The position numbers were made by a program, and so were the translations under genes. The notes beneath the pieces are model-generated. The model ran no database searches, was not told where the DNA came from, and saw only the letters and a program-made list of their open reading frames with translations. A stretch of 64,000 nucleotides of DNA from Dehalococcoidia bacterium (GTDB lineage Bacteria; Chloroflexota; Dehalococcoidia; DSTF01; JALHUB01): the NCBI GenBank assembly GCA_034420175.1, contig DAOULP010000114.1, positions 4,014 through 68,013 of the forward strand, in the 5' to 3' direction. This document shows positions 18,656 through 42,906 of the stretch, piece by piece. Within the stretch, counting starts at the first letter, position 1; every line of letters starts with the position of its first letter.

Positions 18656-18741
18656 GCTGAGTCCCGGTGTCGAGTCGCCACGTGACTGTCAGCAACCTCG
18701 TTACTCACAGGCTACGAGCACCGTATGAACAGGTCAACTCG

Positions 18742-19914: not shown

Positions 19915-20030
19915 ACTGGGCCTCCTCCAAGCCACGGCTACGTGGCCCTGCCAAATCCCCGGCTTCGGAGACTACTCGGTCGTCTTGCAGGCTGGCGCCC
20001 GCCGCAACGCGTCCGAGCGATCGCGACGGC

Positions 20031-20882: not shown

Positions 20883-21243
20883 TTCTTCCTCCTTGGCAAG
20901 AGCCTAGGGTCTCATGGGTTGACATCCAGCAACCAGAGTCCCGTGCGCCACCTCACCTGTGACGAGCCCTCTCGGTCCGGCCAGCTTCCCGCGTCCGTCC
21001 TTGACCGGCACCCTTCATCAGCTCCTGGGTGACCCTGGCCATCCCTTCTCAACCTGGGATGGCCGCAGGCTAGCCCCGCGGACGCGGGCCGATCTATGAC
21101 CTACTTCACGGAAGGGTGCTTTCTGAGAAGGGGATGGGCGGTTCCTTGGTAGCAGTTGACAGTTGCCCCAGGGGCCAGCGGATGGCCTGTTCCGTGGCCA
21201 TATGATTCCATCGTTGTGTGGCCTGGGCGATATCGCCCGGCCG

Positions 21244-21999
21244 CTAGCCGCACAGGCTCTCACAGGGGATGCCATCGTCGTCCCCGTCGAGCCTGTTGGG
21301 ATCGCCTGGGCAAGCGTTGAACACCTCCATGACCTTGTCGCACGTGCTGAAGTCGCCACAGTTGTACTGATCCCGAGAGCAGTCCACGGTGACCGACGAC
21401 GTAGGTGAGGGCGAGGGTGTCACGTCAAGCGTGGGAGACCCACCGCAACCGGCCGGCGGCGGGTAGTCGCAGGCACCCCAGAGGCCTTGTCCCGCCTGGT
21501 ACGCTTGACACTCCAGGGACTTGAACAAGCCCTCGAACATCGTGTCCGGTGGGTAGGTCTTCACGCGAGCATAGCCCTGCTTGACCAGCTCGGCGTCAAG
21601 GAAGGTCTCACATCCTGGGCTGTTTGGGTCGGTGTCCACCCACACGTAGGCCAGGAGCCGTCCGTATTTGTCGGTGCAGGAGATGTCCCGCAGCAGACAA
21701 ACGCTTCGCCCGTCGAGCAGGCTCTTGGTGAAGGCCGAGGCCTCCGGGCCATAGCACTCCACGGGCTTGCTGGGGTGGACGGTCTCGGGCGTGTCGATGC
21801 CGATCAACCGCACGGTGTAGGTCTGGCCGGGGGCAACGTTGCAGTCGAAGTCGGTCTGGTCGAGCCAGAGGGCCTGCACCTTGAAGGTGTCGCCGTCCGT
21901 CACTTGCGTGACCTGGCCGACAGCGCACCTGGCGCCGGTGCCAAGTACCCCCAGGGTCAGTAGAGCTAGCAGAAGTAAGATGAGCCGGACACGACTCAT
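21244..21999 (-). CDS. Secreted thermonuclease (SNase-like) with a C-terminal Excalibur domain
   Basis: Start at the internal Met with an AAGGAGGAAT RBS: MSRVRLILLLLALLTLGVLGTGARC signal. VRLIGIDTPET...YGRLLAYVW is staphylococcal-nuclease-like. C-terminus DCSRDQYNCGDFSTCDKVMEVFNACPGDPNRLDGDDDGIPCESLCG is Excalibur. Confidence 0.85.
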   Translation of the reverse strand: MSRVRLILLLLALLTLGVLGTGARCAVGQVTQVTDGDTFKVQALWLDQTDFDCNVAPGQTYTVRLIGIDTPETVHPSKPVECYGPEASAFTKSLLDGRSVCLLRDISCTDKYGRLLAYVWVDTDPNSPGCETFLDAELVKQGYARVKTYPPDTMFEGLFKSLECQAYQAGQGLWGACDYPPPAGCGGSPTLDVTPSPSPTSSVTVDCSRDQYNCGDFSTCDKVMEVFNACPGDPNRLDGDDDGIPCESLCG

Positions 22000-22397
22000 G
22001 GCATTCCTCCTTCTCATGCGGCGGGGTGGGTGTGGGGAAGAAGGATGAACGAATATGCCTGCATCAGCATTGTACACCCGCTGTCAAGTAGGAGGGTGTC
22101 TCGCACGATCAACAGCTATTCTGTTGCCGTCGCCATTCCTCCCGCTGGGATGGCCGCAGGCTAGCTCCTCGGATGCGGGCCGATCTATGAGCTACCTCAC
22201 GCAGCGGTGCTTTCCGGGAGGAGGATGGGCGGTCGCTTGGGAGATGCGGACGATGGTACCGGGCGACAACGGCTGGATTGCCCAGCCATCACCATTCACG
22301 GATCGTGTGCGGTCGGTTGGTTCCTGCAGAGGCCAACGAGACGTCAGGGGTGGTCTCAAAGACCACCCCCGTGGTTGAATCGTGGACTGCTGGCTAC

Positions 22398-24095
22398 CTA
22401 CGGGTCTCCCGTGCAGTCCACCACGAACGCCTGGGCCAACACCGTGAGCACGTCGCCCATGTCGATCACGCTGTTGGGAGGGCCAGCGTCCCATGGTGGG
22501 TTTGGCCCAGCGCTGGGCGAGCGGTCGTAGCAGAGGCCCTCCTTGTCAGGGGTGGTGTCTCCGTCCATGTCGCAGGAGCCCTTGACAGTATCGTACGAGA
22601 CGCCATTGGCGTTGGGCGGTCCGCCCTCGTCTGCGAAGGTGTAGAAGAGCACACCGAGCACGTCACCGATGTCCACGATCTGATCCCGTGGGCCGTTGGG
22701 CGTCATGTCTGGGCTGGTCGGGGCTGGCACGTCGTAGAAATCATAGGGGTTGAGGGGGTCGTAGGCACCTGTCGAGCCGGGCTTGGGCACCGGGGCTCCG
22801 GCCGGCTCCTCACTGTCTGCGCAGCCATCGACATCTGTGTCAAGGGAGCACCCATCAGTATGATAGACCTGGAGCTCGTCAAGGCTGGTGAGGCCGTCGG
22901 TATCGGGATCTGCGAGTTCATCGGGAAGAGTGGACGTGCAGCGTCGATGCGCGAAGGGGCCGCCATAAATGCCGTGATCATTCGTCTGGCCCCCCATTCC
23001 CGCGGCAGGCAGATCGTCACTCTCAGGGGAGGGGTCACCCGCGTCAACCGATGGGGAGTCGTAACGAAGGCGGTAGTCCAGGGCTCCTCGGAAACGCGGT
23101 GCTTCGACGATGTCCGTCGGTCCGAGTTCATAGGAGCCGATGGATTGATTGCCGTACAGAGTGTTGTAGGAAGTAGCCGCATGCGAGGGGCCATTGACGG
23201 GATCATCGCTCTCGACAAGCACGGTCTGATTCGAGAGGAAGATGTTGTTGCGCACGGTGGGGAAGGACGGGCCATAGCCGTCATCTGCGAGGAACAAGGC
23301 GGCAGTAGTGCCCTCGAATACGTTGTTGATGAGGTATGGGTTGCTCGTGTAGATCTGCGCGCCGAGAAGAGAGCCGCGAAACACGTTGTTTCGAATCTGC
23401 GGATCAGGCCCGGCTCCTTGAGAAGGAGTGTTGTACCAGCCCCAGTAGCCTACGTGGGTGCATTGGGTAATCAGGTTCGTGAAGGTTCCGCTAGTGTGTT
23501 CGCCGTAGACGCCAGCGGAGCAGTTCCGAAGTTCGAATCCATCGATCACATAGCTGGGGTTGTCCTGATGTTCAACGAGAAGCGCACTAGAACCCCCAGC
23601 GTCTATGACGGTGTTCTCAGCTCCGGCACCAATAAGACTGATGTTCTTGAAGCGGACCCTCACGTTCTCGTGATAGGTGCCTGGGCCGACCTGCACCGTG
23701 TCTCCTGGTTGCGCTGCGTCGACGGCCAGTTGAATTGTGGAATAGTCCTCAGGTACTCGTCTGATAGTACCGGGACGGGGCACAAGAACAAGATCGAGCT
23801 CAGACATGACCCCATTCGTGACGGACACGACCTGAGACGCCTCCGCGTAACCCGGCTTGAAGGCAAAGACCCTGTAGGTCCCAGGGCTTAGATCCTGGAG
23901 TGAGTATTGACCCGCAGAGTCCGTTAGGGTCTCAACGCTGGTTCCTTCCACCCACATGACCGCGGAGCCAAGAGGCACGGCTGACGTGTCCATCACTTGC
24001 CCCGTGACACCCTGCGTGACTGCGCCAATGCCGCTTGGCCACGCGAACGCTGCCAGCAAGCCCACAACCAGTATCCGAGTCAGCGAAGCCTTCAC
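22398..24095 (-). CDS. Secreted protein: CarboxypepD_reg-like domain plus right-handed beta-helix plus a C-terminal dockerin-like module
   Basis: GTG start with a GGAAGGAGG RBS. Signal MKASLTRILVVGLLAAFAWPSGIGA. GQVMDTSAVPLGSAVMWVEG...DSAGQYSLQDLSPGTYRV is transthyretin/Cna-B-like. NNVFRG/NNVFEG/NNIFLS are beta-helix repeats. C-terminal ~120 aa ...DIGDVLGVLFYTFADEGGPPNANGVSYD...VIDMGDVLTVLAQAFVVDCTGDP is the module shared with 24150..26054 and the RHS protein. Confidence 0.75.
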   Translation of the reverse strand: MKASLTRILVVGLLAAFAWPSGIGAVTQGVTGQVMDTSAVPLGSAVMWVEGTSVETLTDSAGQYSLQDLSPGTYRVFAFKPGYAEASQVVSVTNGVMSELDLVLVPRPGTIRRVPEDYSTIQLAVDAAQPGDTVQVGPGTYHENVRVRFKNISLIGAGAENTVIDAGGSSALLVEHQDNPSYVIDGFELRNCSAGVYGEHTSGTFTNLITQCTHVGYWGWYNTPSQGAGPDPQIRNNVFRGSLLGAQIYTSNPYLINNVFEGTTAALFLADDGYGPSFPTVRNNIFLSNQTVLVESDDPVNGPSHAATSYNTLYGNQSIGSYELGPTDIVEAPRFRGALDYRLRYDSPSVDAGDPSPESDDLPAAGMGGQTNDHGIYGGPFAHRRCTSTLPDELADPDTDGLTSLDELQVYHTDGCSLDTDVDGCADSEEPAGAPVPKPGSTGAYDPLNPYDFYDVPAPTSPDMTPNGPRDQIVDIGDVLGVLFYTFADEGGPPNANGVSYDTVKGSCDMDGDTTPDKEGLCYDRSPSAGPNPPWDAGPPNSVIDMGDVLTVLAQAFVVDCTGDP

Positions 24096-24149
24096 GTGAA
24101 ACCTCCTTCCCTGACGGTCGTGCCAGAGTGAGTGGTCAGGGGTCCTCGG

Positions 24150-26054
24150 TTACCCTTGGGGTGCCCCAGTGCAGTCCACCACGAACGCCTGCGCCAGCGC
24201 TGCCAGCACGTCACCGATGTCGATGGCGCCATTGGGCGCACCCGCCGGGTCGATGCCGGTGTCTCCGGACGGACCCAGGCCCGGCGACCGATCGTACTTC
24301 AGTCCCTCCTCTATGTTGTGGGTCGGGCTGGCGTCGTTCACGCTGTCCCCGTTGCCGTCCCAACCCTTGACGCTGTCGTAGTCCACGCCGTTCGCATTGG
24401 GCGGGCCGTTGTCGTCCGCAAAGGAGTAGAACAGAACTGCGAGCACGTCACCGATGTCAACTACCTTGTTGCGTGAACCGTTGGCCCCGTCGACGTCGGC
24501 CTTCGCCGGCACCGGCACGTCGTAGACGTCGTACCAGGCGTCCGGGTCGAAGCTGTCTCCCAGGGCGAACTCCTCGGCATCCGTGCAGCCGTCGTCGTCA
24601 GAGTCGTTGACAGGGTCGTCGCACTGGGTGTCGCCCTCTCGGTCGATGCAGGGGCCCGGCGTTGGGGTGATGGTCGGCGTCGGCGTGGTCGTGGCTGCGA
24701 GAGTCGCGGTGGGAGTAGGCGTCGGGCCGGCCGGGCCTCGGTCATGAACGAAGACATCTTCCTCGCCGTTGGTGTCGCCAGACACGAGGTTGGAGGCGTG
24801 TGAGTCAAAGGAGACATAGCGCCCGTTGGCACTGATCTCCAAGTGGTAGCTGCGCGCGTTGCCCTGGGCGCCCGAACTGTCCACGCTCACCAGCTCGGTG
24901 GATCCGGTCAGCCGGTCGTGGACGAATATGTCTCCCTCCTCGTTGGTATCGTTAGGCACAAGGTTGCTCGCATCGGAGTAGAAGGCGATGTATCGGCCGT
25001 CTCCGCTGCTGGATGGCCAGAAGCTAAGGGAATTGCCTTGGTTCTCGCTTGAGTCGACGCTCACCCTGGCGGTCGTGTCTGTCTGTCGATCGCGGACGAA
25101 GATGTCCATGAACCCGTTGGTGTCGCCTGGCACCAGGTCCGAAGCACCAGAGGCGAATGCCACGAACCGGCCATCCCCACTGATCGATGGGCGCTCGCTG
25201 TTGCCGTTGCCCTCAGTGCCGCCCGGCGTGACACTTGCGCACTCGGTGAGGCCGGTTTCCCGATCGTGGACGAAGACATCTGCTCTGGACACACTCGGGT
25301 TGGTGTCGCACTGACCAGGCGCTAGATTCTTCGCCATGGAATAGAATGCGACGTAGCGACCGTCGAAGCTGAGGGAAGGGTTCCCGCTGCTACTATCGGC
25401 CTCATTGCCGTCCGAGTCGACGCTCACCCGCTCTGTCTCCCCAGTCTCGCGGTCGTGCACAAACACATCCCACGTGCCGTTTGTGTCATCTGGCACGAGG
25501 TTGTCCGCTTCGGTCTGGAAGGCCACATAACGGCCATCCCCGCTGATCACTGGGGGATAGCTCCAGCTGTTTGCCTGTGAACCGGCGCTGTCCACGCTCA
25601 CGAGCTGGGTAGCGCTGGTCTGGCGGTCGCGAACAAAGACATCGTTCTGCCCGTTGGTGTCGCCCGGCACCAGATTGGTGGCATCCGACGAGAACGCCAC
25701 ATACCTGCCGCTGGCACTGAGCGCCTGCCCGTGCTCCCACAGTCGGCTGTGACCATTCGCTTGAACGCCCTCGCTGCTCAAGCTGACTAGCTCTGTGCCC
25801 CCGGTCACTCTATCGCGAAGGAATACATCATACTTGCCGTTGGTGTCGTCCAGAACCAGGTCGGATGCGTAGGACTGGAAAGCCACGTAGCGGCCATCCT
25901 CACTGATGGAGGGATGATCGCTGGCGCCGTTGGCCTGTCCCCCGAGGCTATCGACACTGACCCGCTCGGTGGGGCCTGGGGACGCTTGAGTCTGTACAAC
26001 TGCCGTCCATAGGGCGATGGCTGCGACCGGGAGCAAGAGCGCCTTCTTGGACAT
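24150..26054 (-). CDS. Secreted PD40/TolB-like beta-propeller repeat protein with a C-terminal dockerin-like module
   Basis: Start at MSKKALLLPVAAIALWTAVVQTQA (GGAGGTGG RBS). About 8 repeats of S(I)SGDGRYVAF.S.ASNLVPGDTNG..D(V/I)FVHDR.TG. A TPTPTPT linker follows. C-terminus ...VVDIGDVLAVLFYSFADDNGPPNANGVDYDSVKGWDGNGD...AIDIGDVLAALAQAFVVDCTGAPQG. Confidence 0.8.
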   Translation of the reverse strand: MSKKALLLPVAAIALWTAVVQTQASPGPTERVSVDSLGGQANGASDHPSISEDGRYVAFQSYASDLVLDDTNGKYDVFLRDRVTGGTELVSLSSEGVQANGHSRLWEHGQALSASGRYVAFSSDATNLVPGDTNGQNDVFVRDRQTSATQLVSVDSAGSQANSWSYPPVISGDGRYVAFQTEADNLVPDDTNGTWDVFVHDRETGETERVSVDSDGNEADSSSGNPSLSFDGRYVAFYSMAKNLAPGQCDTNPSVSRADVFVHDRETGLTECASVTPGGTEGNGNSERPSISGDGRFVAFASGASDLVPGDTNGFMDIFVRDRQTDTTARVSVDSSENQGNSLSFWPSSSGDGRYIAFYSDASNLVPNDTNEEGDIFVHDRLTGSTELVSVDSSGAQGNARSYHLEISANGRYVSFDSHASNLVSGDTNGEEDVFVHDRGPAGPTPTPTATLAATTTPTPTITPTPGPCIDREGDTQCDDPVNDSDDDGCTDAEEFALGDSFDPDAWYDVYDVPVPAKADVDGANGSRNKVVDIGDVLAVLFYSFADDNGPPNANGVDYDSVKGWDGNGDSVNDASPTHNIEEGLKYDRSPGLGPSGDTGIDPAGAPNGAIDIGDVLAALAQAFVVDCTGAPQG

Positions 26055-26295
26055 GGGTCCACCTCCACAGAGAAGCATAGCCTCGCTGCCACGCGGCGTG
26101 TCCCGAGTCTACCACGCGCAGTCAAAGGGATCGAGCGCGAACAACGCGACGAACCAGCTCCTAGCTCCGTTCGGAGGGAGCAGGAAACACAATGCTGCCA
26201 TAGTGTGCGGCCAAAGGGCACCAGCCGGTGACGAGCCCAAGACGAGGGGCGGCCGCGCAGGCCGCCCCTCCGTCCTGTGGATGCAGACTCCTTGT

Positions 26296-26550
26296 CTACG
26301 GCGCGGTGCAGTCGATCACGAGCGCCTGCGCCAGCACCGCCAGCACGTCACCAATGTCCACTGTGCGGCTGGGCGGTCTGGCATCGACCGACCAGGGCGG
26401 CTTCCGTTGACTGCCCGCGAACCGCCCGATGGCCGGGTCGTAGTAGCGGGCGCGGAGGTAGTAGAAGTGCGTCTCCTCGTCCCACTGCCCGCTGGTGAAG
26501 CGGAAGTCGGTGTCAGCGGGACCCTCGTAGTGCCTCAGCGCGCCGAACAC
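26296..26550 (-). pseudogene. Displaced chimeric fragment: RHS core-end fused to the tail of the dockerin-like module
   Basis: ...HFRFTSGQWDEETHFYYLRARYYDPAIGRFAGSQ...VDIGDVLAVLAQALVIDCTAP. Nucleotide homology to the other RHS core-ends continues upstream of the nominal ATG, to ~26620. So this is a 3' fragment, not a free-standing gene. Confidence 0.55.
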
Positions 26551-26690
26551 GTCGTACCGATAGCTGCCGGTCCTGCTCCCCGTCCCGTCCGTCAGCTCAG
26601 TCGTCGAGCCTAGGCCGTAGCGCAGGGAGTGCTCCGTGCCGGCCCCGTCGGTCTCCTAGACGAATGCGACGGCGTGAACTGGACGTCGTC

Positions 26691-27095
26691 TCAGCCCCTG
26701 TTCAGCTTCTGGCCCGACCAGCCTTCTCGTTGGATGAGTACCGCCATCCAGACACCCCATGCGGCGAGCAGCGGACAAATGACGACCACAGCCAGCCAAC
26801 CGTCTTCAATGACTCGCCAGGCCAACAGGGGGCCGCCGACGAAAGCCATGCCGCCCGCGAACTGCTGTGCTCTTGAGAACCGCCACCGGAGACGGGTTTG
26901 TGGAGGGGGGGCCGACGCTTCTCTGAATGCCGCCCTCAAGTCGGCCACGTTCGCAGGAAGGGCCATCACCACGATGACACCCGCCACGACGGCCAATACC
27001 CACTGTTGGAAAGCAAGGGCGACGGCGCCTGCCCCCAAGATCCACAGAAGCAGAAAGACCCTTGCCCACAGGCGGCCATCTGTTCCTCGTCGCAT
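26691..27095 (-). CDS. Small integral-membrane protein, putative immunity protein for orphan toxin 2
   Basis: 134 aa with 3-4 hydrophobic helices (LLLWILGAGAVALAF..., VVAGVIVVMALPA..., AVVVICPLLAAWGVWMAVLI). Lies immediately downstream of the orphan RHS C-terminal cassette. Confidence 0.55.
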   Translation of the reverse strand: MRRGTDGRLWARVFLLLWILGAGAVALAFQQWVLAVVAGVIVVMALPANVADLRAAFREASAPPPQTRLRWRFSRAQQFAGGMAFVGGPLLAWRVIEDGWLAVVVICPLLAAWGVWMAVLIQREGWSGQKLNRG

Positions 27096-27110
27096 CGTCC
27101 TCTGTTCCTC

Positions 27111-27755
27111 CTAGTCCGCCAAGCACGATGTCACAACCGGCTCAAGGAGCATGAGAAAGGTCGGGAGCGCCCACGGAGCCGTCTCGGGTTGGACAATGCT
27201 GAGACCCCCGGTACCCGCCGCGACACTTGCAGACGAATAGCAGGCCGGCGACCGGCCGGTCAGCGCATCCCAGATCGAACCCACAACAGAGAACAGACCG
27301 CCTGAACCTTGGCCGGGATCGTAGGGCAGAACCTCGCCGCAAGGACCAACGATGAACGCGGTCGGACTTGCACGCACTGGCCTGGGTGTTGGCGTTGGCG
27401 TCGGCGTGGCTGTGGCTCTCGGCGTCGGCGGGGGTGTCACGCCGAGCTTCTCTCCCATCAGCCTAGGCGCCGGCCGGAATGGCGTCGGAGTGGGAGCGCG
27501 ACAGCTACCCTCGTACTGGAGCCCCCAAGGATCTACGAGGTTACATGGGTTGTTGAGCACATAGGCGTACGGGTTCTGCGACTGGGGCATCTCCGCCAGC
27601 CCCGGCCACGGGTCCCCGCTCACGAACCGCCCGATGGCTGGGTCGTAGTAGCGGGCGCGGAGGTAGTAGAGATCCGTCTCCGCATCCCACTGCTCGCCGG
27701 TGAAGCGGAAGTGGGTGTCAGCCGTCCCATCGTAGTAGCGGAGGGAGCCGAACAC
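27111..27755 (-). CDS. Orphan RHS C-terminal/toxin cassette 2 (no N-terminal RHS body)
   Basis: Begins in the RHS core-end (...HFRFTGEQWDAETDLYYLRARYYDPAIGRFVSGDPWPGL...NPCNLVDPWGL), then a PT linker and a ~100-aa unique tip. Nucleotide homology to the main RHS gene extends upstream to ~27830. Confidence 0.6.
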   Translation of the reverse strand: MFGSLRYYDGTADTHFRFTGEQWDAETDLYYLRARYYDPAIGRFVSGDPWPGLAEMPQSQNPYAYVLNNPCNLVDPWGLQYEGSCRAPTPTPFRPAPRLMGEKLGVTPPPTPRATATPTPTPTPRPVRASPTAFIVGPCGEVLPYDPGQGSGGLFSVVGSIWDALTGRSPACYSSASVAAGTGGLSIVQPETAPWALPTFLMLLEPVVTSCLAD

Positions 27756-27830
27756 ATCATACCGATACTTGCCGGTCCTGCTCCCCGTGCTGTCCGCCAG
27801 CTCAGTCGTCGAGCCCAGCGCCCTCTTCCC

Positions 27831-28208
27831 CTACCTCCTACGCGTGTCCCACCAGAACCCCATCAGGTTCGACAGAAGAAGAACCCCCGCCACTGAGCCG
27901 ATGACGGCAGCATCCCCGCTCACCACTGCCACCAGGGCCAAGATGGCCACCGAGACAACGAGCCGAGGCAGCGGTGCATGGGGGAACCTGCTGGTCAGCC
28001 AACCGGCCACGCCCATCTGCTGAGCCAGAAGACCGCCGATGCCGAACACGGCGAGGAGGTTGATGGCAACTCCCTCCCACAGAGCGAGCACCGCACACGT
28101 CAAGGTCGCCCCGATCGCGACCACGAAGGCAATTGCCCCCGTCCAGACCCTGACTGGCCGGCTGAACCTGTACTTCGTCTCTGCGCCTTGCGCTGGCGGG
28201 GAGCTCAT
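27831..28208 (-). CDS. Membrane protein, putative cognate immunity for the main RHS toxin
   Basis: ATG overlaps the RHS stop (AGATGAGC). ~125 aa with three hydrophobic helices (AIAFVVAIGATLTCAVLAL..., LLAVFGIGGLLAQQMGVAGWL, LVVSVAILALVAVV...). The ORF-track upstream extension lies inside the RHS gene and is rejected. Confidence 0.6.
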   Translation of the reverse strand: MSSPPAQGAETKYRFSRPVRVWTGAIAFVVAIGATLTCAVLALWEGVAINLLAVFGIGGLLAQQMGVAGWLTSRFPHAPLPRLVVSVAILALVAVVSGDAAVIGSVAGVLLLSNLMGFWWDTRRR

Positions 28209-31200
28209 CTTGTCACCGAGCACGCCGCTCCCGTCCTGATAGCCAGGGCCTGGTAGGCACCGTACTGCAGAGGCCCGGACCAAAGCGGCACGCCCTCCGG
28301 GGTGCTGACGACGAGGAAAGCGCTCCACCCAGTCAAGGCTACCGCATTGGCATAGCAGAGGGGAGTGCGGGTCGTGGCGAAATCCCACGCGGGATCCACC
28401 AGATGGCGATACACAAGAGTATAGGGGTGATAGTCCCGATAGGCTCTCACAATGTCCCCCCAGTCGATCCCCCACCCGCCGCCAGAAGGCGGGGCGACCA
28501 ATCGGGAGTTGAGGCAGGCACCGCCAGCGATCACCGGGCCACAGAGCGAGATCGCGCCCACTGGAGTCGGCGTAGGTGTCCCGAATGCCCTGCCCTCCAC
28601 GTTGCACAGTCCCCACGGGTCAACCCACCTGACCGGGTTGTTCAGCACGTAGGCGTAGGGGTTCTGCGACTGAGGGAACTGCGCCAACCCCGGCCACGGG
28701 TCCTGACTCACGAACCGCCCGATGGCCGGGTCGTAGTAGCGGGCGCGGAGGTAGTAGAAGTCCGTCTCCTCGTCCCACTGCTCGCCGGTGAAGCGGAAGT
28801 GGGTGTCAGCAGGGCCCTCGTATTCCCTCGCCGCGCCGAACACGTCGTACCGATAGGTCCCGGTCCTGCTCCCCGTCCCGTCCGCCAGCTCACTCGTCGA
28901 GCCCAGGCCGTCGTACAGGTAGTACGTCGCCGTCTCCCCCTCCACCTGCGAGATCAGGTCCAGGCCGTAGACGTAGTAGGTCGTCCCGCCAGCCGCCGTC
29001 TCCTGGAGGATCACGGGCAGGGCCGAGCCGGCGTCCCAGATGTAGTCGGTCGTCGCCCCGTCCACCGTGCGGCTGACGCGCAGGCCGTCGCCGTTGTACT
29101 CGTAGGTCGAGGTCACACCATTGACCGTCGCCTCGATGAGCCGATTCTCGTGATCGTACTCGAAGGTGTCCGCTCCGCGGTCGGTCTGGTTGCCGTTGTC
29201 GTCGTACTCGTAGTCCACAGCACCGTCACCGCTGCAGCCGACCACAAACGTCTGCGCCAGCACCGCCCCCACATCACTCATGTCGATGGCGCTGTTGGGT
29301 GGGCCCGCCGGGTCGATGCCGGTCTCCGGGTCCGGGCCCAAGCCAGGCGAGCGGTCGTACTCGATCCCATCGGCCACGCCGTCGGGCGGAATGTCGGCGA
29401 CCGTGTCTCCGTTGGTGTCGATCCCCTTGTCGGAGTCGTAGTCCACGCCGTTGGCGTTGGGGGGCCCGCCTTCTTCGGTCCAGACGTAGAACAGCACCGC
29501 CATCACGTCACCGATGTCCACACCTCCCGTCTTGGTGCCATTGGCTGCAGGGTCTGCCCTGGCAGGTACGGGCACGTCGTAGACATCGTAGTAGGCGTTG
29601 GGGTCGAAGACGCCGCCCAGGGCCGCCTCCTCGCTCTGGGTGCAGCCGTCGCCGTCGGCGTCCAGTGAGCTGTAGGCGCTCTCCATCTGGTGGGCGTCGT
29701 CGTACTCAGAGGGGTTGTCCCACTTCCAGAGCCGATTGCCGACCTCGTCGTAGTGGTAGGTGTCGAGCTGCGACTCAAGGTTCACGACGTTCCTCAGGCG
29801 GTAGAGCTGGTCGTAGGTGTAGTCGGTGTAGTCCGTCACATCACTAGTATCGGTCAGTTGCGTCCGGTTCCCCACGGCGTCCATGTCGTAGGAGAAGGAG
29901 GAGATGAGGACAGGAGGGTCACCAGGGCCCTCGTTGACGAGGCTCTCCAGGCGGTCGGCGTTGTCGTACGAGTAGGTTGAGACCACGTCGTTGGGAAGAG
30001 TCGCGTCAGCAAGCAGCCTCGCGTCGTCGTACGTGTACGTCGTGACTGCTTCGTTCCAGTCTGTCACTGTCTCCAGGTTGTGCGCCTCATCGTAGGCGTA
30101 CTCGACCTCGTTGCTTCCACCCGGGTAGGTGATAGAGGTCCGGTTGCCAACGTTGTCGTATCCGTAGGCGACCGTGCGCGAGCCGGGGAAGGTAACGGAG
30201 GTCAGGCGGTCCACGTCGTCGTAGTCATAGCTGGTGGTGCCGCTCCCGTCCTCCATCGTCTCGCGGTTGCCCACGGCGTCGTAGGCGAAGGACACGTCGT
30301 CCGTGCCGGCGGGGTAGTCGATGTCGGTGAGGCGGTTGGCGGCATCGTAGGTGTAGGTCGTGGTCTGCTCGTTGCCATCGGTGCGCTCAGTGACGTTGCC
30401 GGCGGCGTCGTAGTCGTAGGAGGTGACGCGGCTGAGGGGATCGGTCACGGACTCCAGCCGGTTGAGGGCGTCGTAGGCGTAGGTGGTGGTCTCGTCGCGG
30501 GCGTCGGTCACCGACGTGCGGTTGCCGTTGTCGTCGTAGCCGTAGGTAGTGCTCTGACCCAGGGCGTCTATCACCTCGACCAGCCGGTCGGCGTCATCAT
30601 AGCCGTAGATGACCGAGGGACAGCCGTCGTCCTCCACCGTGTCGCTGTCGTCGTCGACACCATTGCCCGTGCCGGCCGAGCCGCAGTCATCGCCAGTCTC
30701 GGCGTCCCCGACGGTCTCCCGATTGGCGTCGGTGACGGTCTTGAGGCTCCCCTTGGCGTCATAGGTGTAGGTAGTGACGTTGTCCAGGTTGTCGGTGGCA
30801 GTGACGACGTTGTTCTGAGCGTCGTAGGCATAGGTGGTGGTATGGCCGAGCTCGTTGGTGGACGTGAGCAGGCGGCCGCCCAGGTCATAGGTGAAGGTCG
30901 TCTGGGGAGGGTCCTGGTGTCCGGAGAAGCGGGGGTCTGTGACAGCGGTCTGGTTGCCGTAGTCGTCATAGTCAAACTCGGTGGTGTTGCCGGTGCAGTC
31001 GGTGAGTGTGGTGGACTCGATGAGCTCCGTCACGAGGCCGGTGTCGTCGACGGTGAAGCAGATGCGGGCCTTGGTGGCGCCGCCGTCGTCCTTGCGGATG
31101 ACCTCAGTGACGTTCCCGTCGCCGTCGTACACGTAGTCGGCCTGCCGGCCCAGAGGGTCGGTTGCGAGGTCTACGTCGTTGTTGGCGGTGTAGATGAACT

Positions 31201-33250
31201 CCCAGTCGACGCCGCCCTGCGCCAGGTCGCAGTTGGCGTCGGTGTTGAGGGCGTCGATGATCTGCGTGACGTTGCCATAGGAGTCGTAGTCGTAGGCGGT
31301 CTTGTGGCCTTCCTGGTCGGTGACGCAGGTAGGGTTGTTGTCAGAGTCGTAGTCGTAGTGGACGACGCCGCTCAGCGCGTCCGTGACGTCCGTTGTGCGG
31401 AAGGACGTGTCAAAGTCGTACGTGCTCTTGTGGCCGAGCGGGTCCACCACGACGGTCTGCCCTGGGTCAGGCTCGGGCGTGACGCCGGGGCAGTTCTCGG
31501 TCTCGTTTCCGTAGGCGGGTTCAGTGCCGTAGTAGATGCAAGTCACGTGCTCCTCGGCGTCCCACTGCTCGGCGACACGGTTGGCCGTGTCGTAGAAGTT
31601 GCGGCTGGCGACGTGGCCGTTGGCGTCGGTGAGCGAGGTCATACGGTGGCTATCGTACTCGTAGGCGGTGGTGCCGCTCTTGACGTCCGTGACGGTGACG
31701 AGGTCGCCGGTGCCGGCGCCGTAGGCGAACTCCACAGTCCTGGTGTCGGGAGAGGCCAGAGGATCGGTGACGCTGGTGATCTGGTCGGGGTAGTTGCCGT
31801 TCTCGTAGCCGAACGTGAGGGCTCGGTCGCTGGAGTCCGTCACCGACGAGAGTCGGTCGCTGCCATCGTAGGCGAGCGTTGTCGTGTTGTCGTTGCGGTC
31901 CCTGATGTACTCCAGCCTTCCGTCCTCACTGAAGTCGTAGCTGATCTGTGACTTGGTGGTGAGCGTGTAGGTATCGTCCGGGTTCTGGACGAGGGTGTCG
32001 TAGTTGCCGGGAGGGGCCGTGAAGGAGCCGCCGTCAAGGTGGAAGTAGGCGGTGCCGCCGTGGGCGTACCTGACGCTGACCGAGCCGTCATCGTCGATGC
32101 GCAGCGAGGCGGAGTAGGTGTGGCTCCAGTGGGGGCCCAGGTCACCGACGTAGCTGGACAGAGACAGGTACCTCCTCGTGAACTCCAACGGGACCCCCCT
32201 GCCGGGAATGAGCAGGTCGGTGTGCGAGTGCATCGACTGGCCGGTGGTGGTGTCGAAGGGGTCCCCATCGGTGGCGCTGTGCCAGTCCGGCGCTGATATC
32301 CGCGCCAGCTGATCGGCAGCCACGTTGTCCACGGCGCTGGTGCCGACGGACGAGTGGAACGTGATGATGACGTTCTTGTCGACGTAGGCGTCGCCGACAT
32401 CCAAGACCTTGGTCGTCCAGGCCCTGCTACACGCCGAGCACTGGACGGTGTCCTCGTAGAGCAGGGGTATCGTTTCGGTCGACTCCCATACCTGGATCAC
32501 CAGCTCATGATCGTCCACTTCCGGGAAGGCGTAGTCGACCTCTATCCAACGGGCTGCCAGCACGAACTCCTCCGAGACCAGCCAGCCGCGAAAGAGAGGA
32601 TGCGCCCCGTGGGAGGCATCACTCGCCAACGTCACGTCCTCGGCCTCCCACGCGACGACCACGTCGTGCTGGGTGCCAACATCATCGACTTCGATTGTCC
32701 CGGAGTACGCTTCCACGCGGATTGTGACCGTCTTCCCCCACCAAGGCCCTAGGATGGGAATCGACTTCTCAACCCACGTCTGGCTACATTCGGGGCCGCT
32801 GCAGTCGATGAGCACCCAGGATCCCAACTCCTCGCCCCCCTCGCCGCCATCGAGGATCTTCACCTCAGCATGATTGGTCCCAGGCGTTGGCGCCTGCCAG
32901 CGGAGCCGAACCGCCTCGGTCCCCGGGTCCTGAGTCAGCTCGTAGGCGGAGGACTCAATGTAGCCGCTGGGGCTGATGGTTGCGTACCCGCCCTCGAACG
33001 ACGCTCCGGCGTACGTCCAATGGTCGTCACCAGCGGAGAAGTCGTAGTTGAGGGGCGGCGATCCAATCTCAACTGAGGGAGCGTCGAACGTGTTATTGAC
33101 CGGTGCCACGGTCGTTGCGCCGGATGCGGCTTCCGCCCGGCGCGGCGTATCGTGTGCGGCGGGGAGCCCAAGGCGGGCGGGGGCACTCGTGTTGGAGACC
33201 ACCAGAAGAGCGCTGAGAACGAAACCAGCAAGGAGAAGTCGGCGAAGCAT
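28205..33250 (-). CDS. RHS/YD-repeat polymorphic toxin (~1681 aa) with an embedded dockerin-like module and a unique C-terminal toxin tip
   Basis: Start taken at MLRRLLLAGFVLSALLVVSNTSAPA, a signal-like sequence. Dozens of YD repeats (YxYDxxGN...), then the core-end FRFTGEQWDEETDFYYLRARYYDPAIGRFVSQDPWPGL...DPWGL, then a ~140-aa C-terminal domain. Residues ~1240-1400 carry ...VDIGDVMAVLFYVWTEEGGPPNANGVDYDSDKG...AIDMSDVGAVLAQTFVVGCSGDG. Confidence 0.9.
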   Translation of the reverse strand: MLRRLLLAGFVLSALLVVSNTSAPARLGLPAAHDTPRRAEAASGATTVAPVNNTFDAPSVEIGSPPLNYDFSAGDDHWTYAGASFEGGYATISPSGYIESSAYELTQDPGTEAVRLRWQAPTPGTNHAEVKILDGGEGGEELGSWVLIDCSGPECSQTWVEKSIPILGPWWGKTVTIRVEAYSGTIEVDDVGTQHDVVVAWEAEDVTLASDASHGAHPLFRGWLVSEEFVLAARWIEVDYAFPEVDDHELVIQVWESTETIPLLYEDTVQCSACSRAWTTKVLDVGDAYVDKNVIITFHSSVGTSAVDNVAADQLARISAPDWHSATDGDPFDTTTGQSMHSHTDLLIPGRGVPLEFTRRYLSLSSYVGDLGPHWSHTYSASLRIDDDGSVSVRYAHGGTAYFHLDGGSFTAPPGNYDTLVQNPDDTYTLTTKSQISYDFSEDGRLEYIRDRNDNTTTLAYDGSDRLSSVTDSSDRALTFGYENGNYPDQITSVTDPLASPDTRTVEFAYGAGTGDLVTVTDVKSGTTAYEYDSHRMTSLTDANGHVASRNFYDTANRVAEQWDAEEHVTCIYYGTEPAYGNETENCPGVTPEPDPGQTVVVDPLGHKSTYDFDTSFRTTDVTDALSGVVHYDYDSDNNPTCVTDQEGHKTAYDYDSYGNVTQIIDALNTDANCDLAQGGVDWEFIYTANNDVDLATDPLGRQADYVYDGDGNVTEVIRKDDGGATKARICFTVDDTGLVTELIESTTLTDCTGNTTEFDYDDYGNQTAVTDPRFSGHQDPPQTTFTYDLGGRLLTSTNELGHTTTYAYDAQNNVVTATDNLDNVTTYTYDAKGSLKTVTDANRETVGDAETGDDCGSAGTGNGVDDDSDTVEDDGCPSVIYGYDDADRLVEVIDALGQSTTYGYDDNGNRTSVTDARDETTTYAYDALNRLESVTDPLSRVTSYDYDAAGNVTERTDGNEQTTTYTYDAANRLTDIDYPAGTDDVSFAYDAVGNRETMEDGSGTTSYDYDDVDRLTSVTFPGSRTVAYGYDNVGNRTSITYPGGSNEVEYAYDEAHNLETVTDWNEAVTTYTYDDARLLADATLPNDVVSTYSYDNADRLESLVNEGPGDPPVLISSFSYDMDAVGNRTQLTDTSDVTDYTDYTYDQLYRLRNVVNLESQLDTYHYDEVGNRLWKWDNPSEYDDAHQMESAYSSLDADGDGCTQSEEAALGGVFDPNAYYDVYDVPVPARADPAANGTKTGGVDIGDVMAVLFYVWTEEGGPPNANGVDYDSDKGIDTNGDTVADIPPDGVADGIEYDRSPGLGPDPETGIDPAGPPNSAIDMSDVGAVLAQTFVVGCSGDGAVDYEYDDNGNQTDRGADTFEYDHENRLIEATVNGVTSTYEYNGDGLRVSRTVDGATTDYIWDAGSALPVILQETAAGGTTYYVYGLDLISQVEGETATYYLYDGLGSTSELADGTGSRTGTYRYDVFGAAREYEGPADTHFRFTGEQWDEETDFYYLRARYYDPAIGRFVSQDPWPGLAQFPQSQNPYAYVLNNPVRWVDPWGLCNVEGRAFGTPTPTPVGAISLCGPVIAGGACLNSRLVAPPSGGGWGIDWGDIVRAYRDYHPYTLVYRHLVDPAWDFATTRTPLCYANAVALTGWSAFLVVSTPEGVPLWSGPLQYGAYQALAIRTGAACSVTR
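28696..28920. repeat. RHS core-end recombination repeat (copy C); copies A at ~26411..26620 and B at ~27611..27830
   Basis: ~210-bp near-identical stretches (GAACCGCCCGATGGC.GGGTCGTAGTAGCGGGCGCGGAGGTAGTAGA...GGTGAAGCGGAAGT.GGTGTCAGC...) in direct orientation at the three RHS core-end positions. Confidence 0.7.
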
Positions 33251-33663
33251 GGCTTCCTCCCTGTACCCTGCACGCCGGCCAGGCGGATCCAGACGGTTGA
33301 CCCAGATGCTGTTCACGATGAGAGGACTATGGCTCGTAGACGGTCCACCAGGTAGGAACCAAAAGCCGAGTAAGACTAACCCGCGGCGTTCCGCGCTGTC
33401 AAGCGATAACCTATCAGGATAACATAAGATCGGAGGCACGCGTTTCTGCGCTCAAAGAGGGTACGCCTCTCGTACCGGGTGTGCGGTCGTGGCTGGCGGT
33501 GCCCGCATTGTGGCGGCACCACGCGCTATGGGGTCATGGTGTGCGCTGCTTCGGCCTCCCGGAATCGCCTCGGGTTGCTGGGAGTCACACGGGAGAGGGG
33601 GAATGCGATACTCACAAACGAGACCCGCCGTTGGCGATCGCTATGCCGTAGGGCCCGGTCCCG

Positions 33664-42830: not shown

Positions 42831-42906
42831 GCCCCCGTAGCTCAGTTGGATAGAGCACCGGCCTCCGGAGCCGGGTGCGTGGGTTCGAGTCCCGCCGGGG
42901 GTACCA
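42831..42906 (+). tRNA. tRNA-Arg (anticodon CCG), CCA encoded
   Basis: GCCCCCGTAGCTCAGTTGGATAGAGCACCGGCCTCCGGAGCCGGGTGCGTGGGTTCGAGTCCCGCCGGGGGTACCA. Cloverleaf has a 7-bp acceptor stem, D-arm GCTC/GAGC, anticodon stem CCGGC/GCCGG with loop CTCCGGA, and T-arm GGG..TTCGAGT..CCC. Confidence 0.85.

What the first reader, a model, noticed from the sequence alone, without database searches (positions are those of the whole stretch)
22398..29660. A ~120-aa dockerin-like double Ca-loop module shared by a beta-helix protein, a PD40 protein, and, embedded internally, the RHS toxin
The module consensus is ...PVP..AD...NG..N.V.DIGDVLAVLFY.FAD..GPPNANGVDYDS.KG.D.NGD ... GL.YDRSPGLGP...TGIDPAG.PN.AIDIGDVLAALAQAFVVDCTG. 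It forms the C-terminus of 22398-24095 and 24150-26054, and residues ~1240-1400 of the RHS protein, inserted between YD-repeat blocks. Its tail is fused directly to an RHS core-end in the fragment at 26296-26550. The two D-x-D/N-x-DG...D(I/V)GDVL segments resemble paired dockerin or EF-hand-like loops. Placement inside an RHS shell is unusual. It suggests either a cell-surface anchoring or cohesin-like interaction system common to all three secreted proteins, or recombination hot-spot activity between these genes.
Basis: seen in the sequence. Interest (0 to 1): 0.6.

Follow-up and report, generated by a model that had tools for sequence, protein, structure and literature searches.

The report
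Flexitail docking module inside RHS toxin
Three secreted proteins in a Chloroflexota genome share a ~145-residue calcium-loop module (the catalogued but unstudied "flexitail" domain), one copy of which is built into the shell of an RHS toxin; in related genomes it is often fused to cohesin-like domains, so it probably tethers proteins to the cell surface much as dockerins do.

Summary
Three full copies of a ~145-aa module (48-65% identical) sit at the C-termini of a beta-helix protein and a PD40 protein and inside an RHS toxin. A fourth, partial copy is fused to an RHS core remnant.

The module is NCBIfam NF041520 "flexitail". This is a Chloroflexota family (about 1,400 clusters at 50% identity) with no literature and no known machinery.

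It is not a statistically supported dockerin. Pfam, hhalign and Foldseek are all sub-threshold, although dockerins keep ranking first. It does share dockerin design features:
- an internal duplication of a loop-helix unit (hhalign E 1e-8);
- an invariant EF-hand loop;
- an invariant cysteine near each end.

AlphaFold2 folds the RHS-internal copy as a compact domain (pLDDT 95).

New here: 37 of 207 retrieved flexitail proteins (31 with strong hits) carry a genuine, distant cohesin domain in the same chain (PDB profile E 2e-6). Some cohesin carriers end in a transmembrane anchor.

The RHS-internal copy is conserved in at least four other RHS proteins. A related RHS has a canonical dockerin about 40 residues downstream of that site.

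Best reading: a calcium-dependent surface-tethering module, probably cohesin-binding, placed inside the RHS shell because the C-terminus carries the toxin. No cohesin was found in the window. An envelope-binding role remains a live rival.

The parts
22398..24095 (-). Secreted protein of 565 aa: signal peptide, CarboxypepD_reg domain, parallel beta-helix region, TSP3-like loops, C-terminal flexitail.
   Evidence: Translation. Pfam CarboxypepD_reg E 3e-13. NCBIfam flexitail 66 bits at aa 419-561, plus beta_helix and NosD-like hits.
22401..22838 (-). Flexitail copy 1 (C-terminal, ends ...VVDCTGDP*). It has an extra Cys pair (KGSC...EGLC) in the middle loop.
24150..26078 (-). Secreted PD40 (TolB-like beta-propeller repeat) protein: Pro/Thr linker, then C-terminal flexitail. 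The likely start is MSKK at 26054.
   Evidence: Translation. Pfam PD40 E 8e-17. NCBIfam flexitail 36.8 bits at aa 492-636, just under the 40-bit cut-off.
24153..24599 (-). Flexitail copy 2 (C-terminal, ends ...VVDCTGAPQG*).
   Evidence: AF2 model 1 has pLDDT 83.6.
28205..33250 (-). RHS polymorphic toxin of 1681 aa counted from M64 of the mechanical ORF 28205-33439. Order: Sec signal peptide, DUF6531 plug, YD-repeat shell, internal flexitail, Rhs core with DPWGL, then a C-terminal toxin tip of about 130 aa.
   Evidence: Translation. RHS_repeat E 2.8e-73 and DUF6531 E 6.5e-17. Rhs_assc_core 84 bits. P0086 is identical to the ORF from M64. Gene call on the NCBI contig.
29225..29671 (-). Flexitail copy 3, embedded in the RHS shell (aa 1257-1405 of the mechanical ORF). 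It is inserted immediately before the conserved block of about 200 residues that ends in the Rhs core.
   Evidence: NCBIfam flexitail 42.8 bits when scanned alone. AF2 pLDDT 95.4, pTM 0.89. Solved RHS structures align continuously starting at the first residues after the module (8h8a_A 950-1151). The same insertion is present in L011, P0198, P0203 and P0205.
26296..26550 (-). Chimeric remnant of 84 aa. RHS core sequence (aa 1-44, ending at DPAIGRF and lacking DPxGL) is fused in frame to the last ~35 aa of a C-terminal-type flexitail (26299-26403, ends ...IDCTAP*). It is probably a decayed product of deletion or recombination.
   Evidence: Translations. Rhs_assc_core positions 1-46 of 76. The RHS part is 91% identical over 213 nt to the main RHS core. 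The tail is 89% identical over 53 nt to the PD40 gene's tail.
27831..28223 (-). Multi-pass membrane protein of 130 aa immediately downstream of the RHS stop and overlapping it. Candidate immunity protein.
   Evidence: Frame translation. Gene call. Function inferred from position only.
27111..27755 (-). Orphan RHS C-terminal cassette (core end with DPWGL plus an alternative C-terminal domain).
   Evidence: 86% nt identity over 272 nt to the main RHS core. Gene call.
26691..27095 (-). Membrane protein of 134 aa after the orphan cassette. Candidate second immunity protein.
   Evidence: Function inferred from position only.

Best explanation
The module is the Chloroflexota "flexitail" domain. It is an autonomously folding extracellular domain of about 145 residues with little secondary structure.

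It is built from:
- an N-terminal canonical EF-hand loop (DxDxDGCxxxEE);
- two copies of a dockerin-style loop-helix unit (YD...(N/A)GxxNxx(V/I)DxxDVLAxL);
- an acidic central loop;
- an invariant cysteine near each end, inferred to form a disulfide clasp that brings the two termini together.

I propose that it is a calcium-dependent docking module that holds Sec-exported proteins on the cell surface. Its most likely partner is the distant cohesin domain that is so often fused or adjacent to flexitail in related genomes. Some of those cohesin carriers end in a transmembrane anchor. The layout therefore resembles a non-cellulosomal cohesin-dockerin system with anchoring proteins, COH-FLEX adaptors and cargo carrying a terminal FLEX.

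In the window the cargoes are a beta-helix protein, a PD40 propeller protein and an RHS toxin. In the RHS the C-terminus must carry the encapsulated toxin tip. The docking module is therefore inserted as a loop-out domain in the shell, just before the conserved C-terminal block. The toxin cocoon would then be displayed on the producer's surface. This is functionally like the wall-associated WapA-type RHS toxins of Gram-positive bacteria.

Shown: the identity, repeat structure, fold confidence and distribution of the module; conservation of the RHS insertion; the cohesin identity of the companion domain and its fusion to flexitail.

Inferred: calcium binding, the disulfide, outward orientation on the RHS shell, binding to cohesin, and surface display.
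For: Identity and distribution:
- NF041520 flexitail hits score 66, 36.8 and 42.8 bits for the three copies.
- 1397, 530 and 223 clusters at 50% identity match at E<=1e-3, 1e-10 and 1e-30.
- 47 genomic loci were found, nearly all in Dehalococcoidia or Chloroflexia MAGs, with many paralogues per MAG.
- 168 of 188 proteins have the module at the extreme C-terminus.
- Passenger domains are diverse.
- A choice-of-anchor X domain sits directly before flexitail in P0102.

Domain anatomy:
- The two halves align at probability 95%, E 1e-8.
- D-x-D-G-C-x4-E is invariant in 31 of 31 sequences that reach it, and the C-terminal Cys is present in 42 of 43.
- The loop aligns with calmodulin EF loops at E 0.05-0.5, which is sub-threshold.
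- The AF2 model of the RHS-internal copy has pLDDT 95.4 and pTM 0.89, with helices exactly at the two DVLAxL segments.

Dockerin leads (all sub-threshold):
- Dockerin_1 is the second most frequent Pfam match among the 43 members of alignment A1: 4 of 43, best E 0.054.
- The repeat profile hits the F-hand loops of 4wi0_B, 4u3s_B and 2ccl_B at E 0.18-0.69.
- Type II X-dockerin chains are the top Foldseek hits for both models, and 7 of the 9 hits for the better model.
- Terminal clasps are a general dockerin feature (PMC3821032). The canonical dockerins of P0193 and P0256 are Cys-flanked.

Cohesin link:
- The companion domain profile hits only cohesins in the PDB: 17 of 17 hits, best 3l8q_A E 2e-6, four further entries near 2e-4.
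- 37 of 207 flexitail proteins carry it in the same chain, 31 of them with scores above 50 bits.
- 13 of 46 flexitail loci have it in the same ORF or within 6 kb.
- The only metagenome locus found with the cohesin query is again COH-FLEX-FLEX.
- P0190, P0176 and L042 3095-4003 combine cohesin, a PT linker and a C-terminal GGIAE[LA]P-TM-RRR anchor.

RHS:
- The insertion is conserved in L011 (46% identity over 1321 aa), P0198, P0203 and P0205.
- P0256 is a related RHS C-terminal block (42% identity) with a canonical Pfam dockerin inserted about 40 residues downstream.
- The window RHS has a Sec signal peptide, and the Pfam and NCBIfam scans returned no T6SS or T7SS domain.
- Gram-positive WapA RHS toxins are Sec-exported and wall-anchored (PMC12704120).
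Against: - Every direct test of dockerin homology fails significance. The window modules have no Pfam hit even at E<=10. hhalign against a small canonical dockerin profile gives probability 1-2%. Foldseek gives E>=1 and TM about 0.29.
- The two repeats are 55-60 residues apart, against 8-18 in dockerins. Repeat 2 lacks ligand residues at loop positions 1 and 3.
- No cohesin-like ORF occurs in the 64-kb window or in about 20 kb of flanks, although a fourth flexitail gene does.
- A Dehalococcoidia MAG with flexitail proteins also encodes a cohesin-like domain fused to a canonical dockerin (P0193). The cohesins may therefore have canonical dockerins as partners.
- Fusion of two domains in one chain shows functional association, not that they bind each other.
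- No coordinates were available, so the Cys-Cys distance, the calcium sites and the orientation on the RHS shell could not be checked.
Confidence: 0.5

Rival explanations
1. Flexitail is a cell-envelope anchor, analogous to SLH or cell-wall-binding modules of anchoring scaffoldins. It would bind an S-layer, glycan or lipid component directly and not a cohesin. The fused cohesin domains would recruit other proteins carrying canonical dockerins.
For: - COH-FLEX and COH-FLEX-FLEX architectures with flexitail at the C-terminus mirror cohesin-SLH anchoring scaffoldins.
- Canonical dockerins coexist in at least one flexitail MAG, fused to the same cohesin-like family (P0193).
- NCBIfam calls the family a putative surface protein domain.
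- A choice-of-anchor X domain precedes flexitail in P0102.
- No cohesin lies near the three window genes.
Against: - P0176 carries flexitail, a cohesin and its own transmembrane anchor, which would be redundant for an envelope anchor.
- Canonical F-hand motifs are rare in the flexitail loci: 3 single motifs in 47 loci and none in the window. Flexitail is the regular companion of the cohesins.
- The duplicated loop-helix design and the repeated top ranking of dockerin chains fit a dockerin-type role.
Confidence: 0.27
2. Flexitail is a C-terminal sorting domain recognised and removed by dedicated export or attachment machinery, comparable to the T9SS C-terminal domain or to sortase and exosortase signals.
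For: - It is strictly C-terminal in 168 of 188 proteins and ends in a conserved xDC(S/T)GPP motif.
- There are many paralogues per genome in a restricted lineage.
Against: - It has no transmembrane helix or basic tail. The window copies end ...DCTGDP* and ...DCTGAPQG*.
- It is a 145-aa domain folded at pLDDT 95.
- It occurs internally or in tandem in about 11% of proteins.
- It is conserved inside RHS proteins, where it cannot be a terminal signal.
- The window and its 20-kb flanks contain no sortase-like or exosortase-like gene among the ORFs scanned.
Confidence: 0.08
3. The module is only a calcium-stabilised structural spacer, like thrombospondin type 3 repeats, with no specific partner. 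Its recurrence in neighbouring genes reflects local duplication and recombination between them, as in the reader's hot-spot idea.
For: - The N-terminal loop matches TSP3_bac in 9 of 43 members.
- The structure is mostly coil with many conserved Asp and Asn.
- A chimeric RHS-core/flexitail fragment exists at 26296-26550.
Against: - The window copies are only 66-73% identical at DNA level, so there has been no recent conversion.
- The RHS insertion predates a 46%-identity divergence.
- Terminal placement on very diverse passengers, and frequent fusion to cohesins, argue for a targeting role over a spacer role.
Confidence: 0.1

Closest known systems
NCBIfam NF041520 'flexitail domain-containing putative surface protein'
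   Same: The window modules match this HMM over its whole length. The family is Chloroflexota-centred, usually C-terminal, and has many copies per genome.
   Different: The catalogue entry is only a name. No paper on it was found. The RHS-internal placement, the internal repeat, the EF loop with its Cys pair, and the cohesin association are not conveyed by that name. The PD40 copy scores 36.8 bits, just under the 40-bit cut-off.
Dockerin modules (Pfam PF00404), especially the type II X-dockerins of cellulosomal scaffoldins (PDB 4U3S, 4WI0, 5M0Y, 2B59)
   Same: - Duplicated calcium-loop plus helix unit with the signature xGx(V/I)(D/N)xxD(V/L)L.
- Usually the C-terminal module of secreted multidomain proteins.
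- Termini apparently clasped together.
- Found with cohesins in the same proteins and loci.
- Dockerin chains are the best-ranked sequence and fold matches.
   Different: - No significant sequence or structural match.
- More than twice the size.
- The repeats are separated by about 55-60 residues that contain further conserved motifs (PNANGVDYDS, YDRSPG).
- Repeat 2 lacks canonical ligands.
- There is an extra N-terminal EF loop and an invariant Cys pair.
- The cargo domains seen are not carbohydrate-active enzyme families.
Cohesin domains (type II ScaB cohesins of Acetivibrio cellulolyticus, PDB 3L8Q, 1QZN, 4U3S; NagJ cohesin 2JH2)
   Same: The domain of about 160 aa fused to flexitail in relatives matches only cohesins in the PDB (E 2e-6 to 0.3). 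It also gives a sub-threshold Pfam Cohesin hit.
   Different: It is very divergent, falling below Pfam's gathering score. It has two invariant cysteines. It is not present in the window, and binding to flexitail is untested.
WapA-type RHS toxins of Gram-positive bacteria (Bacillus subtilis, Streptococcus suis)
   Same: Sec signal peptide, RHS shell, polymorphic C-terminal toxin with a downstream immunity gene and orphan cassettes, and a module for retention on the producer's surface (PMC12704120; window).
   Different: WapA carries its wall-binding domain at the N-terminus. Here the putative tether is a domain inserted into the shell about 200 residues before the end of the core. The Chloroflexota hosts have a different envelope.
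RHS C-terminal block with an inserted canonical dockerin (P0256, GCA_040961615.1)
   Same: It has the same conserved RHS C-terminal block (42% identity) and an inserted Cys-flanked docking module within one YD hairpin of the flexitail site.
   Different: The insert is a 55-aa Pfam-recognised dockerin and not a flexitail. It lies about 40 residues further downstream. Only a 442-aa gene on a 2.6-kb contig is known.

Membership tests
NCBIfam NF041520 flexitail | HMM score at or above the curated 40-bit cut-off | tested here: met
   Beta-helix copy 66 bits. RHS-internal copy 42.8 bits when scanned alone. PD40 copy 36.8 bits, just under the cut-off, but 65% identical to the RHS copy.
NCBIfam NF041520 flexitail | C-terminal position in secreted proteins of Chloroflexota, with multiple paralogues per genome | tested here: met
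   Two of the three window copies are C-terminal. 168 of 188 relatives are C-terminal. The loci come almost entirely from Dehalococcoidia or Chloroflexia MAGs, with up to 16 or more loci in one MAG. The RHS copy is the exception.
Dockerin (Pfam PF00404) | Significant match to the dockerin profile | tested here: not met
   No hit for the three window modules at E<=10. 4 of 43 relatives match, with best E 0.054. hhalign against canonical dockerins of P0193 and P0256 gives probability 1-2%.
Dockerin (Pfam PF00404) | Tandem duplication of an F-hand calcium loop plus helix | tested here: met
   The two halves align at probability 95%, E 1e-8. AF2 places helices at both DVLAxL segments. The spacing is atypical, at about 55-60 residues.
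Dockerin (Pfam PF00404) | Asp/Asn ligands at loop positions 1, 3, 5, 9 and 12 in both repeats | tested here: inconclusive
   Repeat 1 is N-G-x-(R/K)-(N/D)-x-x-V-(D/N)-x-x-D, with N and the final D at least 90% conserved. Repeat 2 is (A/P)-G-x-P-(N/D)-x-x-(V/I)-D-x-x-D and lacks ligands at positions 1 and 3.
Dockerin (Pfam PF00404) | Dockerin fold | tested here: inconclusive
Dockerin (Pfam PF00404) | Binds a cohesin | not testable with these tools
   The evidence is contextual only. There is a cohesin-like domain in the same chain in 37 of 207 relatives, and none in the window.
Cohesin (for the companion domain in related loci) | Significant similarity to solved cohesins | tested here: met
   Profile A3 against PDB sequences returns cohesins for all 17 hits. 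The best is 3l8q_A at E 2e-6, and four more are near 2e-4.
RHS / YD-repeat polymorphic toxin | YD repeats, N-terminal plug domain, Rhs-associated core with DPxGL, variable C-terminal tip, downstream immunity gene | tested here: met
   RHS_repeat E 2.8e-73 and DUF6531. TIGR03696 at 84 bits. VDPWGL is present in the sequence. Small membrane ORFs and orphan cassettes lie downstream. The immunity function is inferred.
C-terminal sorting signals (LPXTG, PEP-CTERM, T9SS CTD) | Obligatory C-terminal position; for the sortase and exosortase types, a motif plus TM helix plus basic tail | tested here: not met
   The window copies have no TM helix or basic tail. Internal and tandem copies are common. The RHS-internal copy is conserved.
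EF-hand | Canonical 12-residue loop D-x-D-x-D-G-x-x-x-x-x-E | tested here: met
   The motif is met at sequence level only. The N-terminal loop (DSDDDGCTDAEE in the PD40 copy, DADGDGCTQSEE in the RHS copy) has D, D, G, C and E invariant in 31 of 31 sequences. It aligns to calmodulin loops at E 0.05-0.5, which is sub-threshold. Metal binding was not tested.

The most novel reading that the evidence does not exclude
Flexitail modules and the divergent cohesins fused to them form a previously unrecognised, phylum-wide, non-cellulosomal cohesin-dockerin-like system. This system assembles the cell surface of Chloroflexota. RHS toxins plug into it through a docking domain embedded in their shell. That would be a secretion-system-independent way of displaying a toxin cocoon for contact-dependent killing.
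Probability: 0.3. Interest if true: 0.75.

Novelty: new variant of a known kind. Interest (0 to 1): 0.6.

Why it matters
How Chloroflexota, and especially Dehalococcoidia, hold proteins on their unusual cell envelope is largely unknown.

A lineage-specific docking module is present in about 1,400 protein clusters and is repeatedly fused to cohesins. It would supply a testable organising principle for their surface proteome. It would also extend cohesin-dockerin-type assembly well beyond cellulosomes.

For polymorphic-toxin biology, a docking domain inserted in the RHS shell is a distinct finding. It appears as flexitail in one lineage and as a canonical dockerin in another. This indicates that Sec-exported RHS cocoons can be tethered through the shell itself, leaving both ends free for the plug and the toxin.

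The module is also a compact, confidently predicted, probably calcium-switchable tag. It could be of use for surface display.

Tried and rejected
- **Pfam scan of the modules at E<=10.** Nothing was found, including Dockerin_1 and EF-hand.
- **Literature search for "flexitail".** Only unrelated antibody-engineering papers turned up. Searches for dockerin + cohesin + Chloroflexi and for dockerin + Rhs gave nothing on this module. Only a general remark was found that polymorphic PT-TG toxins can carry cohesin or dockerin domains.
- **hhalign of flexitail against a small canonical dockerin profile.** Not significant.
- **Search for a cohesin-like partner.** Two HMMs were run over the window and about 20 kb of flanking contig. 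No hit was found; the best is E 0.09 in ORF 10845-14405, treated as noise.
- **Metagenome scan with the cohesin alignment.** A3 was too divergent to seed a scan. A2 returned a single locus.
- **P0086 as independent evidence.** I first counted it as a second RHS with an internal flexitail. It is identical to the window's own protein and was dropped.
- **Recent gene conversion between the copies.** Rejected on 66-73% DNA identity.
- **Assembly artefact.** Rejected on conservation in other genomes.
- **Source contig look-ups.** Two look-ups with mechanical ORF starts failed before corrected starts worked.

Full report
**1. What is in the sequence**

The region holds three minus-strand genes for Sec-type secreted proteins.
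- ORF 22398-24095 encodes a CarboxypepD_reg plus parallel beta-helix protein.
- ORF 24150-26078 encodes a PD40 beta-propeller-repeat protein.
- ORF 28205-33439 encodes an RHS toxin. It has 16 RHS repeats, a DUF6531 plug and a TIGR03696 Rhs core.

The public record calls the RHS gene from Met64, giving 1681 aa (window 28205-33250), and that protein is identical to the window's.

A module of about 145 aa ends the first two proteins. It also occupies aa 1257-1405 of the RHS ORF, between YD repeats. The copies find each other by tblastn at 48-65% identity, E 1e-36 to 4e-54.

Between the RHS and the PD40 gene lie four further elements:
- a 130-aa membrane protein (27831-28223);
- an orphan RHS C-terminal cassette (27111-27755);
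- a 134-aa membrane protein (26691-27095);
- the 84-aa ORF 26296-26550.

In that last ORF, an RHS core that stops at DPAIGRF is fused in frame to the last ~35 residues of a C-terminal-type copy of the module.

**2. Identity of the module**

NCBIfam recognises it as NF041520, "flexitail domain-containing putative surface protein". The scores are 66, 36.8 and 42.8 bits against a 40-bit cut-off. Pfam has nothing for it, even at E<=10. A full-text search finds no paper on the bacterial domain.

A profile of 43 sequences finds 1397 clusters at 50% identity at E<=1e-3, and 530 at E<=1e-10.

In one-genome-per-species contigs, 47 loci were recovered. Nearly all come from Dehalococcoidia or Chloroflexia MAGs, and there are often 10 or more loci in one MAG. 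A few MAGs carry other labels (Gammaproteobacteria, Patescibacteria, Promethearchaeota).

The window itself comes from NCBI MAG GCA_964632905.1, contig CAZWDW010000003.1. A fourth complete flexitail gene lies about 9 kb beyond the window's right end.

In 168 of 188 fetched proteins the module is at the extreme C-terminus and ends xDC(S/T)GPP. Passenger domains are very diverse. They include FG-GAP, NHL, CARDB, Big_1, M36 protease, PD40, beta-helix and RHS.

**3. Anatomy**

The family alignment shows these features in order:
- an N-terminal D-x-D-x-D-G-C-x-x-x-E-E loop, in which D, D, G, C and E are invariant in all 31 sequences that reach it;
- a YDxYDVPVP motif;
- a first loop-helix, NGxRNxxVDxxDVLAVLFY;
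- a PNANGVDYDSxKG motif;
- a variable acidic loop;
- a YDRSPG motif;
- a second loop-helix, AGPPNGxVDxxDVLAxLAQ;
- a C-terminal Cys, present in 42 of 43 sequences.

The first loop is a canonical EF-hand loop. It aligns to calmodulin loops at sub-threshold E values of 0.05-0.5, and it matches TSP3_bac in 9 of 43 members.

The two loop-helix halves are homologous to each other (hhalign probability 95%, E 1e-8).

AlphaFold2 gave a borderline model with the first alignment: pLDDT 83.6 for the best model and 53-61 for the other four. With 72 sequences it gave a very confident model of the RHS-internal copy. That model has pLDDT 95.4 and pTM 0.89, and four of the five models exceed pLDDT 87. Short helices sit exactly at the two DVLAxL segments, and there is little other secondary structure.

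The module is therefore an autonomous compact domain. I infer, but could not verify, that the terminal cysteines form a disulfide. Such a bond would put the N- and C-termini together, which is what a domain needs in order to be inserted into a loop of another protein.

**4. Is it a dockerin?**

Dockerins are duplicated F-hand loop-helix modules whose termini are clasped (PMC3821032). Flexitail shares that design, and dockerins keep surfacing as the best weak matches.
- Dockerin_1 is the second most frequent Pfam match among the 43 members of alignment A1, in 4 of 43 with best E 0.054.
- A profile of the stacked repeats aligns to the F-hand loops of 4wi0_B, 4u3s_B and 2ccl_B at E 0.18-0.69.
- Type II X-dockerin chains are the top Foldseek hits for both models, and 7 of the 9 hits for the better model.

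None of this is significant. Foldseek gives E>=1 and TM about 0.29. hhalign against canonical dockerins gives probability 1-2%. The second repeat lacks ligand residues at loop positions 1 and 3. The repeats are about 55-60 residues apart.

I therefore do not file flexitail as a member of the dockerin family. The claim is that it may work like one.

**5. The companion domain**

Among the 20 proteins whose last flexitail is not C-terminal, eight continue into a shared domain of about 165 aa.

A 12-sequence profile of that domain hits only cohesins in the PDB. All 17 hits are cohesins. The best is 3l8q_A (ScaB) at E 2e-6, and four further ScaB cohesin entries lie near 2e-4. NagJ cohesin scores about 0.01. 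It is a distant but genuine cohesin.

With that profile, 37 of 207 flexitail proteins carry a cohesin in the same chain, 31 of them with scores above 50 bits. The orders seen are SP-COH-FLEX, COH-FLEX-FLEX, COH-COH-FLEX and FLEX-COH.

Thirteen of 46 flexitail loci have it in the same ORF or within 6 kb. The single metagenome locus found with the cohesin query is again COH-FLEX-FLEX.

Three cohesin carriers (P0190, P0176 and L042 3095-4003) end in a PT linker, a GGIAE[LA]P motif, a hydrophobic helix and an Arg-rich tail. That is a C-terminal membrane anchor or sorting signal. A choice-of-anchor X domain precedes flexitail in P0102.

This is the architecture of an anchoring-scaffoldin, adaptor and cargo system, here without any carbohydrate-active cargo.

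**6. The RHS copy**

The insertion is conserved.
- An RHS protein from another Dehalococcoidia MAG (L011) is 46% identical over 1321 aa and has flexitail at the same place.
- Three metagenomic RHS fragments show flexitail running directly into the same YxYDDNGNQT... block. These are P0198, P0203 and P0205. P0203's flexitail is divergent and its RHS ends in a C-terminal tail unlike the window's.

Solved RHS and teneurin structures align continuously from the first residues after the module to the end of the core (for example 8h8a_A 950-1151). Flexitail is thus an insertion at the boundary of the conserved block of about 200 residues at the C-terminus.

P0256 is a related RHS C-terminal block, 42% identical. 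It carries a Pfam-recognised, Cys-flanked canonical dockerin inserted about 40 residues downstream of that site.

Two different docking-type modules have therefore been inserted independently into the same part of RHS shells.

The simplest rationale is that the C-terminus of an RHS protein is reserved for the encapsulated toxin, so a normally C-terminal tether has to be placed internally. The window RHS has a Sec signal peptide, and the Pfam and NCBIfam scans returned no T6SS or T7SS domain. In this it resembles wall-associated WapA toxins (PMC12704120).

**7. What weakens the cohesin-binding step**

- No cohesin-like ORF is present in the 64-kb window or the 20 kb of flanks I could reach.
- One flexitail-bearing MAG also encodes the cohesin-like domain fused to a canonical dockerin (P0193). 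The cohesins could therefore pair with canonical dockerins while flexitail anchors the assembly to the envelope, as SLH domains do.
- Against that rival, canonical F-hand motifs are rare in the flexitail loci. P0176 also combines flexitail with its own membrane anchor.
- I cannot decide this computationally with the tools available.

**8. Other readings**

- A cleaved sorting signal is unlikely. The domain is large and well folded, has no TM helix or basic tail, and occurs internally and in tandem.
- A recombination hot spot is not supported. The copies are 66-73% identical at DNA level.
- The fragment at 26296-26550 is a one-off chimera. Its RHS part is 91% identical to the main RHS core, and its tail is 89% identical to the PD40 gene's tail. 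The junction falls where the two parents share a YD...PPW-like stretch. It lacks DPxGL and a toxin tip, so it is probably a decayed remnant.

**9. Verdict**

The module is a catalogued but uncharacterised family. What is new here is its dissection, its strong association with divergent cohesins, and the conserved insertion into RHS shells, with a canonical-dockerin parallel.

I rate it a new variant of a known kind (cohesin-dockerin-type surface assembly, and surface-tethered RHS toxins), with interest 0.6.

Noticed in passing
window 26691-28223 (-): Downstream of the RHS gene there is a classic polymorphic-toxin tail. It comprises a 130-aa multi-pass membrane ORF overlapping the RHS stop, an orphan RHS C-terminal cassette with a different tip (27111-27755), and a second 134-aa membrane ORF. 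The RHS tip itself (about 130 aa after DPWGL) is hydrophobic and has no family match.
   Followed up: partly
L042 3095-4003; proteins P0190 and P0176: Cohesin-bearing proteins of related Chloroflexota end in a recurrent C-terminal signal: PT linker, GGIAE[LA]P, hydrophobic helix, then AWYA(R/G)RRW. No NCBIfam model matched P0190 or P0176. It may be an undescribed sorting signal.
   Followed up: partly
L051 439-1767 (P0256); L049 8001-8648 (P0193): Both carry canonical dockerins flanked by a Cys at each end. One is inserted inside an RHS C-terminal block. The other follows a cohesin-like domain in a Dehalococcoidia MAG that also has flexitail proteins.
   Followed up: partly
L053 363-1841 (same contig, about 9 kb beyond window position 64000): A fourth complete flexitail protein (492 aa, C-terminal module, 153 bits) is encoded just outside the window, near a Peptidase_M6 gene.
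   Followed up: partly
window 15161-22077 (-): A run of defence-like or stress-like genes lies next to the flexitail genes. It includes a TIR-HEAT protein (17927-18655), a caspase-like Peptidase_C14 (20031-20882), a metallo-beta-lactamase-fold protein (18742-19935) and a secreted SNase with an Excalibur calcium-binding tail (21244-22077). A second Excalibur-tailed protein is at 15161-16018.
   Followed up: no
window 1-10066 and 37999-58652: The surroundings look like an integrated mobile or defence island. Genes include a tyrosine integrase (2366-3364), DUF3800, DndB-like plus N6/N4 methylase (5961-10066), Prim-Pol (37999-40638), a large serine recombinase abutting tRNA-Arg (42831-44341), a 1695-aa DUF4011/AAA_11/AAA_12/MTES_1575 helicase-nuclease (48760-53847), and a Metallophos plus SMC-like pair (54202-58652).
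   Followed up: no
window 30001-32000: There is strong strand composition bias (GC skew +0.16, AT skew -0.28) over the YD-repeat part of the RHS gene. It presumably reflects the repetitive Tyr/Asp/Gly/Thr-rich coding.
   Followed up: no
L006 856-3394: A cohesin-like ORF ends in DSDGDGCANSEE and then runs out of frame. The overlapping next ORF starts with the rest of a flexitail. This is probably one COH-FLEX-FLEX gene split by a frameshift or an assembly error.
   Followed up: no
PDB chain 5fce_A (LPXTG family cell surface protein Fms2): The best PDB sequence hit of the flexitail repeat profile (E 0.0026) is a segment PNKSVNASDVHAVLTYGW in an enterococcal LPXTG surface protein, not a dockerin. 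It was not examined further.
   Followed up: no
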